Shown: positions 19,401-22,400 of the stretch, piece by piece
How the letters are laid out: every line of letters begins with the position of its first letter
Position numbering within the stretch: position 1 is the stretch's first letter
Virus record (IMG/VR): IMGVR_UViG_2563366968_000005
Coordinates: 1 to 43,077 of that record
Length of the DNA stretch: 43,077 nt
Strand: one strand, 5' to 3'
DNA from: a virus
Lineage: Duplodnaviria > Heunggongvirae > Uroviricota > Caudoviricetes
Position numbers: made by a program

Positions 19401-22400
19401 CATGCTCGTTGAAGCATACGGAAACCAGACAGAAGTAGCACGCAGACTGAAATGTAGTCGTGGTACGGTCAGAAAATACGTTGATGATAAAGACGGGAAA
19501 ATGCACGCCATCGTCAACGACGTTCTCATGGTTCATCGCGGATGGAGTGAAAGAGATGCGCTATTACGAAAGAATTGATGGCAGCAAATACCGAAATATT
19601 TGGGTAGTTGGCGATCTGCACGGATGCTACACGAACCTGATGAAAAAACTGGAGACGATAGGATTCGACACCAAAAAAGACCTGCTTATCTCGGTTGGCG
19701 ATTTGGTCGATCGCGGTACAGAGAACGTCGAATGCCTGGAATTAATCACATTCCCCTGGTTCAGAGCTGTACGTGGAAACCATGAGCAAATGATGATTGA
19801 TGGCTTATCAGAGCGCGGAAACGTCAATCACTGGATGCTTAATGGCGGTGGCTGGTTCTTTAATCTCGATTACGACAAAGAAATTCTGGCTAAAGCTCTT
19901 GCCCATAAAGCAGATGAACTTCCGTTAATCATCGAACTGGTGAGCAAAGATAAAAAATATGTCATCTGCCACGCCGATTATCCTTGTGACGAATACGAGT
20001 TTGGAAAGCCAGTTGATCATCAGCAGGTAATCTGGAACCGAGAACGAATCAGCAACTCACAAGACGGGATCGTGAAAGAAATTAAAGGCGCGGACACGTT
20101 CATCTTTGGTCATACGCCAGCAGTGAAACCGCTCAAATTTGCCAACCAGATGTATATCGATACCGGCGCAGTGTTCTGCGGAAAGCTCACATTGATTCAG
20201 GTACAGGGAGAAGGCGCGTGGGCATAAGAGAACTAAACCTCACCAAAGAACAGCATGAGTGGCTGAATGGCTGGCTTGAACTGTGGGGCGCATGGGTTTA
20301 TTCAGGTCGTCTGGAAAAGCGCATGAGCAGCGTAATAGCGAAGTTCATGGAGAGCGTAGAGCCGGGAAGAGTTATGACAAGGCCAATGTGTAATGATGAT
20401 GATGGAATGTTGATTTCTCAGGTCGTCGATTCCGTCATGTACATTGACAAGAAAGCCTTTGGCATCCTCCTCAGCTACTACGCTCATGGTTCATCTAAGC
20501 GAGCAATTGCATCCTACTATCACGCGACTGCAAAGCCACGCAAGATGTGTGGACGTGGTGGCGAGGGATGGAGAAAACCTTCAATGGCAACCTGTAGAAA
20601 CGAAATTGACGACATCCTGAAAGCGTCGTTATTTGTTTTGTACCAGCCAATGCAAAATGCTTTCAAAATGCGTAAACGTGTTGAGAAAGTTAAGCATGTT
20701 GCTGTTAAAAGCCTTGACATGCAATTATCCATTTAGCCATAATTAGAAGGTAAGCTGCCGTTAGTGACTCTTAAGTTGCAACGGTGGCTTTTTTTATTTG
20801 GGTCAGTCGTATAAAGGTCATTACGGAAGGCTGTTAACCTTCTTATCGTGGTTCGAGTCCACGCTGTCCCGCCAAACATGCTGGTTTAGCTCCAATGGTA
20901 GAGCAGTCGCCTTGTAAGCGAATGGGTAGCGGTTCAAGTCCGTTAACCAGCACCATAACTGAGCCGTAGCCACTGGCTATCCTGAATTCATCAGTGATAG
21001 TTACGCTGCGGCCTTCTACACATGACCTTCGTGAAAGCGGGTGGCAAGAGGTTGCGCTAACAACCTCCTGCCGTTTTGCCCGTGCATATCGGTCACGAAC
21101 AAATCTGATTACTAAACACAGTAGCCTGGATTTGTTCTATCAGTAATCGACCTTATTCCTAATTAAATAGAGCAAATCCCCTTATTGGGGGTAAGACATG
21201 AAGATGCCAGAAAAACATGACCTGTTAGCCGCCATTCTCGCGGCAAAGGAACAAGGCATCGGGGCAATCCTTGCGTTTGCAATGGCGTACCTTCGCGGCA
21301 GATATAATGGCGGTGCGTTTACAAAAACAGTAATCGACGCAACGATGTGCGCCATTATCGCCTGGTTCATTCGTGACCTTCTCGACTTCGCCGGACTAAG
21401 TAGCAATCTCGCTTATATAACGAGCGTGTTCATCGGCTACATCGGTACTGACACGATTGGTTCGCTTATCAAACGCTTCGCTGCTAAAAAAGCCGGAGTA
21501 GAAGATGGTGGAAATCAATAATCAACGTAAGGCGTTCCTCGATATGCTGGCGTGGTCAGAGGGAACTGATAACGGACGGCAGAAAACCAGAAATCATGGT
21601 TATGACGTCATTGTTGGCGGAGAGCTATTCACTGATTACTCCGATCACCCTCGCAAACTTGTCACGCTAAACCCAAAACTCAAATCAACAGCAGCCGGAC
21701 GTTACCAGCTTCTTTCCCGTTGGTGGGATGCCTATCGTAAGCAGCTTGGCCTGAAAGACTTCTCTCCGAAAAGCCAGGACGCTGTTGCACTGCAGCAGAT
21801 TAAAGAGCGTGGCGCTTTACCGATGATTGATCGCGGTGATATCCGTCAGGCAATCGACCGTTGCAGCAATATCTGGGCTTCACTGCCGGGGGCTGGTTAT
21901 GGTCAGTTCGAGCATAAGGCTGACAGCCTGATTGCAAAATTCAAAGAGGCTGGCGGAACGGTCAGAGAGGTTGAGGTATGAGCAGAGTAACCGCGATTAT
22001 CTCCGCTCTGGTTATCTGCATCATCGTCTGCCTGTCATGGGCTGTTAATCATTACCGTGATAACGCCATGACCTACAAAGAGCAGCGCGATAAAGCCACA
22101 TCCATCATCGCTGATATGCAGAAGCGTCAACGTGATGTAGCAGAACTCGACGCCAGATACACAAAGGAGCTTGCTGATGCTAACGCGACTATCGAAAGTC
22201 TCCGTGCTGATGTTTCTGCTGGTCGTAAGCGCCTGCAAGTCGCCGCCACCTGTGCAAAGTCAACGACCGGAGCCAGCAGCATGGGCGATGGAGAAAGCCC
22301 AAGACTTACAGCAGATGCTGAACTCAATTATTACCGTCTCCGAAGTGGAATCGACAGGATAACCGCGCAGGTTAACTACCTGCAGGAGTACATCAGGACG

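What the first reader, a model, noticed from the sequence alone, without database searches (positions are those of the whole stretch)
20800..20955. Two tRNA-like genes between the Q/pR' region and the lysis cassette
Two cloverleaf-capable sequences (anticodons GUU and UGU by manual folding) follow the tR'-like terminator, so they would be expressed mainly under Q antitermination during late growth. Phage tRNAs at this site are known in other lambdoid phages, but these anticodon assignments differ from the Ile/Arg set I recall there. The first has an acceptor-stem mismatch and may be degenerate. A hairpin at about 21043-21072 may terminate or process the transcript.
Basis: partly seen in the sequence, partly recalled or inferred. 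Interest (0 to 1): 0.4.

Follow-up and report, generated by a model that had tools for sequence, protein, structure and literature searches.

The report
Known phage tRNA-Asn/tRNA-Thr late-operon cassette
These are two real phage tRNA genes (Asn-GUU and Thr-UGU) sitting just after the late-operon terminator; the same cassette is already annotated in phage 21, Sf6 and many relatives, and its Thr tRNA has already been shown experimentally to protect against the tRNA-cutting defence protein Old of phage P2.

Summary
Both tRNAs are confirmed at exactly the stated coordinates and with the stated anticodons: Asn-GUU at 20800-20874 and Thr-UGU at 20880-20955, on the + strand. Both encode CCA. The 176-bp segment is 100% identical to the annotated tRNA-Asn/tRNA-Thr pair of phage 21, Sf6 and BTP1. 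It occurs in 61 phage records and in 369 of 5426 complete E. coli genomes.

The context is also as described: a 21-type Q gene, pR', tR', the two tRNAs, then lambda-type S/R/Rz.

Two sub-claims fail:
- **tRNA-Asn is not degenerate.** Stem changes in relatives are compensated. The U4-U69 mismatch is conserved, or becomes a U-G pair.
- **The 21043-21072 hairpin is not linked to the tRNAs.** It belongs to the lambda S-leader module, and lambda itself has it without any tRNAs.

Function is partly published. This exact tRNA-Thr sequence (phage 21 and HK446) resists P2 Old cleavage and rescues cells or phages from Old. The phage also uses ACA codons three times more often than host genes.

tRNA-Asn is untested. 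Its anticodon stem lacks the Old (CNG) and PARIS AriB (UAAU) motifs that host tRNA-Asn carries. Whether it also counters defence is the only open question. Verdict: already known, low interest.

The parts
20218..20736 (+). Late-gene antiterminator Q, phage-21 type
   Evidence: Pfam Phage_antitermQ, E = 1e-25. 85% identical to phage 21 Q: the first 94 residues match exactly and the C-terminal part has diverged. Same gene as Sf6 gene 59.
20714..20743 (+). Late promoter pR' (TTGACA, 18-nt spacer, CATAAT). The spacer holds a Q-binding-element-like repeat that differs from phage 21's.
   Evidence: Promoter scan gives 11 of 12 matches. The position corresponds to the annotated pR' of phage 21 and Sf6. 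By homology to phage 21 the transcript start is at about 20750.
20752..20799 (+). tR' intrinsic terminator (hairpin 20752-20790 plus U7-A-U3). It directly abuts tRNA-Asn position +1.
   Evidence: Identical to the annotated phage 21 tR'. Fold energy -21.5 kcal/mol, z = -4.5.
20800..20874 (+). tRNA-Asn (anticodon GUU), CCA encoded, discriminator G73, U4-U69 and U13-U22 mismatches
   Evidence: ARAGORN; Rfam 55.3 bits; cloverleaf as the minimum-free-energy fold; compensatory changes in relatives; annotated as tRNA-Asn in Sf6 and phage 21.
20875..20879 (+). 5-nt spacer (AACAT) between the two tRNAs
   Evidence: Read directly from the sequence. The spacer varies among relatives while the tRNAs stay conserved.
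20880..20955 (+). tRNA-Thr (anticodon UGU), CCA encoded, G1-C72 and C2-G71, G27-A43 mismatch that shortens the anticodon stem
   Evidence: ARAGORN; Rfam 61.5 bits; fold; compensatory changes in relatives. Identical to the phage 21 and HK446 tRNA-Thr, both of which were tested experimentally against P2 Old.
20957..21197 (+). Lambda-type leader of the lysis cassette. It contains the hairpin 21043-21072 (extended stem 21037-21083). It is not part of the tRNA cassette.
   Evidence: 97.7% identical to lambda from about 44945 onward. Present in 135 phage records, many of them without tRNAs. Fold; no terminator call.
21198..21521 (+). Holin S (lambda type), the first gene of the lysis cassette
   Evidence: Pfam Phage_holin_3_1, E = 2e-30. 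Corresponds to Sf6 genes 60/61.

Best explanation
[quoted passage not shown] Proposed mechanism: pR' transcripts that read through tR' under Q antitermination carry both tRNAs ahead of the lysis and virion genes. A small leak through tR' may add some. RNase P and 3' exonucleases then release the tRNAs; CCA is encoded, so none has to be added. Both tRNAs carry the E. coli identity elements and should be charged with Asn and Thr. They give the infected cell extra decoders for ACA and AAY codons, which the late genes use heavily. Their anticodon stems lack the sequence motifs recognised by the anticodon-stem Toprim nucleases of competing P2/P4 elements (P2 Old and PARIS AriB). Late translation can therefore continue after the host thrU tRNA, and to a lesser degree the host tRNA-Asn, has been cut. 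What is shown here: the genes, their structure, their position and their conservation. What is shown in the literature for this exact tRNA-Thr sequence: resistance to Old and rescue from Old. What is inferred: Q-dependent expression and processing, charging, and any defence role for tRNA-Asn.
For: Genes and structure. Selection for structure: all stem substitutions in relatives are compensated, and the anticodon stems are invariant across the E. coli, Shigella and Salmonella copies. Identity elements, read from the sequence: Asn has G34-U35-U36 plus G73; Thr has G1-C72, C2-G71, G35 and U36. That these are the E. coli identity sets is from my own knowledge. Position: immediately after the annotated phage 21 tR', with pR' as the only strong promoter-like site upstream. 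Codon use: ACA is 16.0 per 1000 codons in the phage versus 5.2 in 34 E. coli genes and 3.0 in ribosomal and elongation-factor genes. Asn codons are 50.7 per 1000 in late genes versus 37.8 in the host sample. The SfI paper reports the same ACA bias (PMC3636060). Counter-defence: P2 Old kills cells by cutting host tRNA-Thr(UGU) at paired CNG motifs (nt 28-30 and 40-42). The phage 21 tRNA-Thr protects against Old and resists cleavage in vitro, owing to a shorter anticodon stem and the C28U/G42A change (PMC12445682). The HK446 tRNA-Thr restores plating of Old-sensitive phages (bioRxiv 10.64898/2026.07.10.737580). The window tRNA-Thr is identical to both and shows exactly these features: UCG and CGA in place of the CNG motifs, and a G27-A43 mismatch. 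PARIS AriB cuts host Lys(UUU), Thr(UGU) and Asn(GUU) tRNAs at U36-A-A-U39-C40|N41 (PMC12409363). Both window tRNAs lack U39; host thrU and asnT have it. Host asnT has CNG on both strands; the window tRNA-Asn has it on neither. PARIS also restricts lambda (PMC9122126). The phage encodes Abc2, an anti-RecBCD protein, and RecBCD inhibitors are known Old triggers. Asn(GUU) and Thr(UGU) also travel together in P1 (tandem), in N4-like phages and in Mulock, with unrelated tRNA-Asn lineages.
Against: I have no expression, processing or charging data for this element. One paper says outright that it is not known whether these tRNAs are cut out of the late mRNA (PMC8022706). The rescue experiments used plasmid-expressed tRNAs. 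Viral tRNAs did not rescue lambda itself, or Old toxicity in recB-deleted cells, and a single tRNA was judged insufficient for full suppression. [quoted passage not shown] The cassette has no tRNA-Lys, which is the prime PARIS target and is required for T5 to escape. tRNA-Asn is only a secondary target of AriB and is not among Old's preferred targets in the preprint. The phage anticodon stems differ from the host's at almost every position, so loss of the motifs is not specific evidence. The P1 tRNA-Thr keeps both CNG motifs, the P1 tRNA-Asn keeps UAAU, and the Mulock and Phytobacter tRNA-Asn keep CNG. On the codon-supply side, AGA, AGG and AUA are enriched far more (11-, 10- and 4-fold) yet have no tRNA here. 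AAC and AAU are not rare codons.
Confidence: 0.7

Rival explanations
1. The cassette does codon supplementation only. The tRNAs simply raise the supply of decoders for codons that the AT-richer phage uses more than the host does (ACA, and abundant Asn codons). Nuclease resistance is an incidental by-product of sequence divergence.
For: ACA is three times more frequent in the phage than in host genes, and E. coli has a single tRNA-Thr(UGU) gene. Late genes are rich in Asn. The SfI and phage L papers argue the same. A 2026 preprint finds that both Sf6 tRNAs match codons that differ significantly between phage and host.
Against: The most over-used rare codons (AGA, AGG, AUA) have no tRNA in this cassette. 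There is no AAC bias, and the host has tRNA-Asn gene copies (four, from my own knowledge). The SfI authors themselves found no explanation for tRNA-Asn. Extra E. coli tRNA-Thr(UGU) did not rescue from Old, whereas the phage version did. That shows the phage sequence has a property beyond supply.
Confidence: 0.2
2. One or both genes are decaying relics (pseudo-tRNAs) carried along passively between the Q and lysis modules. This is what the first reader suspected for tRNA-Asn.
For: There is a U4-U69 mismatch in the acceptor stem and a U13-U22 mismatch in the D stem. Decay does happen at this site. In ST64T the second tRNA has an anticodon arm that ARAGORN rejects. Stx2c phage 2851 keeps only the first 24 nt of tRNA-Asn.
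Against: The sequences are identical across several genera. There are three compensated double changes and no disruptive stem change in tRNA-Asn, and two double changes plus one G-C to G-U change in tRNA-Thr. All identity elements and CCA are intact. The tRNA-Thr sequence has been shown experimentally to be active in decoding and rescue. The same unusual D arm is found in the tRNA-Asn of a jumbo Erwinia phage (81% identical).
Confidence: 0.04
3. The tRNAs act mainly as RNA-processing punctuation. RNase P and other cuts at the tRNAs would detach the pR' leader and terminator from the late mRNA and create a defined 5' end for the lysis and virion message.
For: The cassette sits exactly between the terminator U-run and the S leader, both in 21-type and in lambda-type late regions. 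tRNA-Asn begins immediately after the terminator U-run, whose last four bases are AUUU.
Against: Lambda, HK75 and CUS-3 express the same S leader and lysis genes with no tRNAs. Processing would not require conserved anticodons, identity elements or CCA.
Confidence: 0.05

Closest known systems
Phage 21 / Sf6 late-operon tRNA-Asn and tRNA-Thr pair (GenBank OL657228, AJ237660, AF547987; also BTP1, SfI, SPN9CC, Kapi1, HK446)
   Same: 100% identical over 176 bp. Same order (Asn then Thr), same 5-nt spacer, same position immediately after tR' and before the holin gene.
   Different: Nothing differs in the tRNAs. The flanks are mosaic. Here the Q/QBE region is the Sf6 variant of the 21 type (85% identical to Q21), and the lysis genes are lambda type rather than S21 type.
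tRNA-Thr of phage 21 ('tRNAThr21') and of HK446, the Old-resistant rescue tRNAs (PMC12445682; bioRxiv 10.64898/2026.07.10.737580)
   Same: Identical sequence. UGU anticodon, CNG motifs altered on both strands, and an anticodon stem shortened by the G27-A43 mismatch.
   Different: The published tests used plasmid expression. The role of the native late-operon copy during infection by this phage has not been tested.
[quoted passage not shown]
   Same: The same two specificities (Thr-UGU and Asn-GUU), both with substitutions at positions 39 and 41, which flank the AriB cut site.
   Different: There is no tRNA-Lys here. The sequences are unrelated to the T5 versions. T5 is virulent and carries more than 20 tRNAs. 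Resistance of the window tRNAs to AriB has not been tested.
ileZ-argN-argO tRNA set of Stx-converting lambdoid phages (for example phage 2851; 933W from my own knowledge)
   Same: tRNA genes placed between Q/pR'/tR' and the downstream late genes. Phage 2851 even has a 21-type Q and the same tR'.
   Different: Different tRNAs: anticodons CAU, UCG and UCU, with no sequence relation. They are usually explained by rare Arg and Ile codons. In phage 2851 only a 24-nt stump of tRNA-Asn remains.
Phage P1 trnA-trnT tandem, and the N4-like Asn-Ser-Thr cluster
   Same: Asn(GUU) followed by Thr(UGU) in E. coli phages. The tRNA-Thr is 83-88% identical to the window's.
   Different: Their tRNA-Asn belongs to another lineage (59-64% identical). 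The genomic context differs (the P1 pair lies downstream of the C1-controlled ban promoters, in the stretch before plp). The P1 tRNAs keep the CNG and UAAU motifs.

Membership tests
Canonical bacterial elongator tRNA (Rfam RF00005) | Cloverleaf with four helices, scoring above the family's gathering threshold | tested here: met
   55.3 and 61.5 bits against a gathering score of 29. ARAGORN calls both. The minimum-free-energy folds are cloverleaves.
Canonical bacterial elongator tRNA (Rfam RF00005) | Conserved U33, a purine at position 37, a GTTC-type T loop and a 3' CCA | tested here: met
   Anticodon loops are CUGUUAA and CUUGUAA. T arms are GGTTCGAGTCC and GGTTCAAGTCC. CCA is encoded after G73 (Asn) and A73 (Thr).
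Canonical bacterial elongator tRNA (Rfam RF00005) | Helices maintained by compensatory change among relatives | tested here: met
   Asn: 3 pairs changed on both sides and none broken. Thr: 2 pairs changed on both sides plus one G-C to G-U change. The register-shift controls show no covariation in any shifted register for Asn and a lower score than the true register for Thr. Only four distinct sequences were available for each tRNA.
Phage 21 / Sf6-type late-operon tRNA-Asn/Thr cassette | Sequence identity to the annotated pair | tested here: met
   100% over 176 bp to phage 21, Sf6 and BTP1. Alignment.
Phage 21 / Sf6-type late-operon tRNA-Asn/Thr cassette | Located between tR' (downstream of Q and pR') and the holin gene, in the order Asn then Thr | tested here: met
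Substrate of E. coli AsnRS (tRNA-Asn identity) | Anticodon G34-U35-U36 plus discriminator G73 (identity set from my own knowledge of the E. coli literature) | tested here: met
   All four nucleotides are present, and they are shared with E. coli asnT even though overall identity is only 63%. Actual charging cannot be tested here.
Substrate of E. coli ThrRS (tRNA-Thr identity) | G1-C72, C2-G71, G35 and U36 (identity set from my own knowledge) | tested here: met
   Acceptor stem GCUGGUU/AACCAGC and anticodon UGU. Functional decoding of ACA by the identical phage 21 tRNA is implied by its rescue activity.
Old-resistant phage rescue tRNA-Thr(UGU) | UGU anticodon, altered CNG motifs at nt 28-30 and 40-42, and a shortened anticodon stem | tested here: met
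   UCG and CGA replace the host's CUG and CAG, and G27-A43 is unpaired. This matches the published description, C28U/G42A plus a shorter stem.
Old-resistant phage rescue tRNA-Thr(UGU) | Protects against P2 Old in vivo and resists cleavage in vitro | not testable with these tools
   Published for the identical phage 21 and HK446 sequences. Identity was verified. Not tested from the native locus.
Nuclease-resistant rescue tRNA-Asn(GUU) (counterpart of the T5 anti-PARIS tRNA-Asn) | Loss of the nuclease recognition motifs present in host tRNA-Asn (paired CNG; U36-A-A-U39) | tested here: met
   Window: AAG and CUU, and UAAC. Host asnT: CGG and CCG, and UAAU. Weak evidence, because the whole stem differs.
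Nuclease-resistant rescue tRNA-Asn(GUU) (counterpart of the T5 anti-PARIS tRNA-Asn) | Shortened anticodon stem, as in the resistant tRNA-Thr variants | tested here: not met
   All five anticodon-stem pairs are standard.
Nuclease-resistant rescue tRNA-Asn(GUU) (counterpart of the T5 anti-PARIS tRNA-Asn) | Demonstrated resistance to Old or AriB, and rescue activity | not testable with these tools
   I found no published test of this tRNA-Asn. The 2026 preprint even describes HK446 as having a single tRNA.
Stx-phage ileZ/argN/argO tRNA set | Anticodons CAU (Ile2), UCG and UCU | tested here: not met
   The window has GUU and UGU. Phage 2851 has CAU, UCG and UCU at the equivalent site.
Intrinsic terminator (for the hairpin 21043-21072) | GC-rich stem directly followed by a U-tract of at least 5 U's in 8 nt | tested here: not met
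   The stem is stable, but it is followed by GUUUUGCCCG. That tail has only four U's, and the MFE fold pairs its GCCCG with bases upstream of the core stem. The terminator scan made no call.

The most novel reading that the evidence does not exclude
tRNA-Asn(GUU) is not a bystander. It is the second half of a mobile, roughly 160-bp two-tRNA counter-defence cassette aimed at the OLD-family Toprim anticodon-stem nucleases carried by P2 phages and P4 satellites (P2 Old and PARIS AriB). Those nucleases cut host Thr(UGU) and Asn(GUU) tRNAs. Both cassette tRNAs have lost the CNG and UAAU recognition motifs. The cassette has been inserted at the same point, right after tR', in both lambda-type (HK446) and 21-type late-control regions, so that resistant tRNAs are made just before bulk late translation. 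[quoted passage not shown]
Probability: 0.35. Interest if true: 0.45.

Novelty: already known. Interest (0 to 1): 0.25.

Why it matters
The cassette is common: 369 of 5426 complete E. coli genomes carry it, as do many Salmonella and Shigella P22-like and lambda-like phages, and even a prophage of the laboratory strain Origami2(DE3). It is a clear example of a temperate phage carrying tRNAs at a fixed, regulated site. Its tRNA-Thr is now known to neutralise the classic P2-lambda interference effector Old. What remains open, and easy to test, is whether the partner tRNA-Asn does the same against Old or PARIS, and whether the native late-operon copy provides enough tRNA in time. As a scan finding it adds nothing new. 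It confirms a published and annotated element.

Tried and rejected
1. The pseudogene idea for tRNA-Asn is rejected on conservation and compensatory changes.
2. The hairpin at 21043-21072 as a tRNA-linked terminator or processing site is rejected. It lies in the lambda S-leader module, which phages without tRNAs also carry, and it fails the terminator scan. A literature search for tandem late terminators in lambda found nothing usable. I recall such a report (Luk and Szybalski, 1983) but could not verify the coordinates.
3. An Rfam search at permissive E-values over 20690-21200 found only the two tRNAs.
4. The original phage 21 late-region paper (PMC207295) is not held in the library.
5. The species-representative genome scan with a 31-nt tRNA-Asn pattern returned only 6 loci, because the pattern was strict. 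The covariation sample is therefore small: four distinct sequences per tRNA.
6. I considered evasion through changes in the anticodon loop. Both loops are identical to the host's; the differences are all in the stems.
7. I considered whether the Asn-plus-Thr pairing in P1 and N4 reflects common descent of a cassette. The tRNA-Asn lineages differ (59-64% identity), so the pairing is not simply inherited.
8. The heavy protein, structure and metagenome tools were not used, because the question concerns RNA genes that already have exact database matches.
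Full report
**Observation.** ARAGORN finds exactly two tRNA genes in the 43,077-bp window: tRNA-Asn(GUU) at 20800-20874 and tRNA-Thr(UGU) at 20880-20955, both on the + strand. Rfam's tRNA model scores them 55.3 and 61.5 bits, against a gathering score of 29. A permissive Rfam search of 20690-21200 finds nothing else. Both fold into cloverleaves as their minimum-free-energy structures. Both have an encoded CCA, and a 5-nt spacer separates them.

**Context.**
- Upstream lies a 172-aa Q antiterminator (Pfam Phage_antitermQ). It is 85% identical to phage 21 Q: the first 94 residues are identical and the C-terminal part has diverged.
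- Next comes a strong promoter-like site, TTGACA-18-CATAAT, at 20714-20743.
- Then comes a terminator hairpin plus U-run at 20752-20799 (z = -4.5). It is base-for-base the annotated tR' of phage 21.
- tRNA-Asn starts immediately after the terminator's U-run.
- Downstream are lambda-type S, R and Rz.
- The window also contains sar RNA and P22-type virion genes. It is a mosaic P22-like, lambdoid E. coli phage.

**It is a known element.**
- The 176 bp around the pair are 100% identical to phage 21, Sf6, BTP1 and others. In all, 61 phage records match.
- The Sf6 and phage 21 records annotate the same series: Q, pR', qut/QBE, tR', tRNA-Asn, tRNA-Thr, holin.
- 369 of 5426 complete E. coli genomes carry the pair, and RefSeq annotates it as tRNA-Asn and tRNA-Thr. 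These include a 21-type prophage in Origami2(DE3). Fifteen plasmid-collection records also match; by size, several of these look like phage genomes, but I did not examine them.
- The literature describes it explicitly. The SfI paper reports two tandem tRNAs, GUU and UGU, downstream of Q, also present in Sf6, ST64T, PS3 and phage 21 (PMC3636060). The phage L paper (PMC8022706), the epsilon34 paper (PMC2629481) and the phage 21 genome announcement (PMC9119081) mention it too.
Phage 2851 has a 21-type Q and the same tR', followed by CAU, UCG and UCU tRNAs and then stx2.

**Cassette boundaries.**
- Homology to lambda begins at window 20957, one base after the tRNA-Thr CCA.
- In HK446 the identical cassette lies behind a lambda-type Q, pR', 6S leader and tR'.
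- A three-way alignment shows the cassette replacing about 163 bp of lambda exactly. The replaced stretch runs from the terminator U-run (TTTTTTAT) to AACTGAGCC at about lambda 44945.
- The cassette is therefore a discrete unit of about 160 bp that moves between late-control types.

**Is tRNA-Asn degenerate? No.**
- The U4-U69 mismatch is real, as is a U13-U22 mismatch.
- The gene is identical in elements from Escherichia, Shigella, Salmonella and E. albertii. The Shimwellia copy differs by a single T-loop base.
- The Mulock and Phytobacter variants differ at stem positions 6:66, 7:65 and 28:42. Every one of these changes is compensated.
- In Salmonella phage Oslo the mismatch becomes a U-G pair.
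- The unusual D arm is shared with the tRNA-Asn of a jumbo Erwinia phage (81% identity, against 63% to E. coli asnT).
- GUU and G73, which I recall as the E. coli AsnRS identity set, are present.
- tRNA-Thr shows two compensated pairs and one G-C to G-U change. It has G1-C72, C2-G71, G35 and U36.
- The sample is small, with four distinct sequences per tRNA. The covariation is consistent but not statistically strong.

**The hairpin at 21043-21072.** It exists and is stable. It is the core of a longer stem spanning 21037-21083 (-25.8 kcal/mol, z = -3.3). But it belongs to the lambda S-leader module. That module is found at 90% identity or more in 135 phage records, including lambda-like phages, HK75 and CUS-3, which have no tRNAs. 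Only four U's follow the stem, and the terminator scan did not call it. Whatever it does, it is not specific to the tRNAs.

**Function: codon supply.** ACA is 16.0 per 1000 codons in the phage genes, 5.2 in 34 E. coli genes, and 3.0 in ribosomal and elongation-factor genes. Asn codons make up 50.7 per 1000 in late genes against 37.8 in the host sample, and there is no AAC preference. This matches the SfI paper. However, AGA, AGG and AUA are enriched far more and have no tRNA here. Supply explains tRNA-Thr reasonably well and tRNA-Asn poorly.

**Function: counter-defence.** This is published for tRNA-Thr.
- Govande et al. (PMC12445682) showed that P2 Old kills by cutting host tRNA-Thr(UGU) at paired CNG motifs in the anticodon stem. 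They also showed that the phage 21 tRNA-Thr protects cells and resists cleavage, through a shortened stem and the C28U/G42A change.
- A 2026 preprint shows that the HK446 tRNA-Thr restores plating of Old-sensitive phages.
- The window tRNA-Thr is identical to both. It shows UCG and CGA in place of the CNG motifs, and a G27-A43 mismatch.
- Belukhina et al. (PMC12409363) showed that PARIS AriB cuts host Lys(UUU), Thr(UGU) and, less efficiently, Asn(GUU) tRNAs next to a U36-A-A-U39 motif. T5 versions of all three tRNAs rescue. PARIS also restricts lambda.
- Both window tRNAs lack U39. The window tRNA-Asn also lacks the two CNG motifs that host asnT has.
- The phage encodes Abc2, an anti-RecBCD protein. 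RecBCD inhibitors of other kinds trigger Old.

**Caveats.**
- There is no tRNA-Lys in the cassette.
- tRNA-Asn is only a minor target of these nucleases.
- The phage anticodon stems differ from the host's almost everywhere, so loss of the motifs is not specific evidence.
- The P1 and Mulock tRNAs retain some of the motifs.
- Viral tRNAs did not rescue lambda itself.
- Nobody has tested the tRNA-Asn or the native locus.

**Verdict.** The finding is correct in its core, and it is already known: annotated, published, and for tRNA-Thr functionally characterised. The only part still open is the role of tRNA-Asn.

Noticed in passing
L006 1501-1534 (phage 2851, FM180578); corresponds to window 20790-20823: Stx2c phage 2851 has a 21-type Q and the same tR', but homology to the window stops 24 nt into tRNA-Asn. 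A stump of the Asn gene remains, followed by unrelated DNA, then the Ile/Arg/Arg tRNAs and stx2. The recombination breakpoint lies inside the tRNA gene.
   Followed up: partly
L004 1291-1359 (ST64T, NC_004348): In ST64T (and, per the phage L paper, in L) the second tRNA keeps the acceptor, D and T arms of the Thr gene but has a rewritten anticodon arm. ARAGORN does not call it. Rfam gives 42 bits with a 4-nt loop. The phage L paper reads it as tRNA-Leu(UAA). Its status as a functional tRNA looks doubtful.
   Followed up: partly
L016 5473-5706 (Escherichia albertii NBRC 107761): After an identical tRNA-Asn comes a hybrid tRNA-Thr(UGU). Its 5' part is phage type and its 3' part resembles host thrU. 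Its anticodon stem is weakened to three pairs and one CNG motif is lost. A tRNA-Gly(UCC) follows. Gly(UCC) is listed among Old's preferred targets in the 2026 preprint, so this site may collect several nuclease-target tRNAs.
   Followed up: no
L024 311-466 (HK446, JQ086372): HK446 carries both tRNAs, identical to the window's, behind a lambda-type Q, pR' and tR'. Its GenBank record annotates neither tRNA. The 2026 Old preprint says HK446 encodes a single tRNA, so the tRNA-Asn has been overlooked there.
   Followed up: yes
L018 2511-2666 (E. coli Origami2-DE3, NZ_CP084529): A prophage in the common expression strain Origami2(DE3) carries the same tRNA-Asn/Thr pair, with a 21-type Q and S21-type lysis genes. 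This laboratory strain therefore contains an Old-resistant tRNA-Thr gene.
   Followed up: partly
window 20720-20738 and 20218-20736: The Q protein is identical to Q21 over its first 94 residues and then diverges. The promoter spacer, where phage 21 has its Q-binding repeats (ATTGAGCA and AATGAGCA), reads AATTATCC and ATTTAGCC here. This fits a co-diverged Q/QBE specificity, as the phage L paper noted for L. The terminator and tRNAs just downstream are unchanged.
   Followed up: partly
L005 1201-1520 (Klebsiella phage Mulock) and L014 7330-7404 (Phytobacter): Mulock has an expanded array at the same site: Asn, Phe, Thr, Arg(UCU). Its tRNA-Asn, like the Phytobacter one, has C28:G42 instead of A28:U42. 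That restores a CNG motif on both strands of the anticodon stem.
   Followed up: partly
window 38809-38876 (- strand): A full-length, high-scoring sar RNA (95.6 bits), the antisense regulator of ant in the P22 immI region. It marks the phage as P22-like with a secondary immunity region.
   Followed up: no
window 5815-6312 and 7209-8733 (- strand): The early-left region encodes a Mom-like DNA-modification protein (PHROG 1384), Abc2 (anti-RecBCD), an SSB and an Erf-type annealing protein. RecBCD modifiers matter here because RecBCD inhibition triggers P2 Old.
   Followed up: partly
L023 1425-1578 (P1) and L022 62-311 (N4-like phage 3HA13): Asn(GUU) and Thr(UGU) tRNAs also sit together in P1 (tandem, 2-nt spacer) and in N4-like phages (Asn-Ser-Thr). 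Their tRNA-Asn sequences are unrelated to the window's. The same pair of specificities recurring in unrelated E. coli phages suggests a shared selective pressure.
   Followed up: partly
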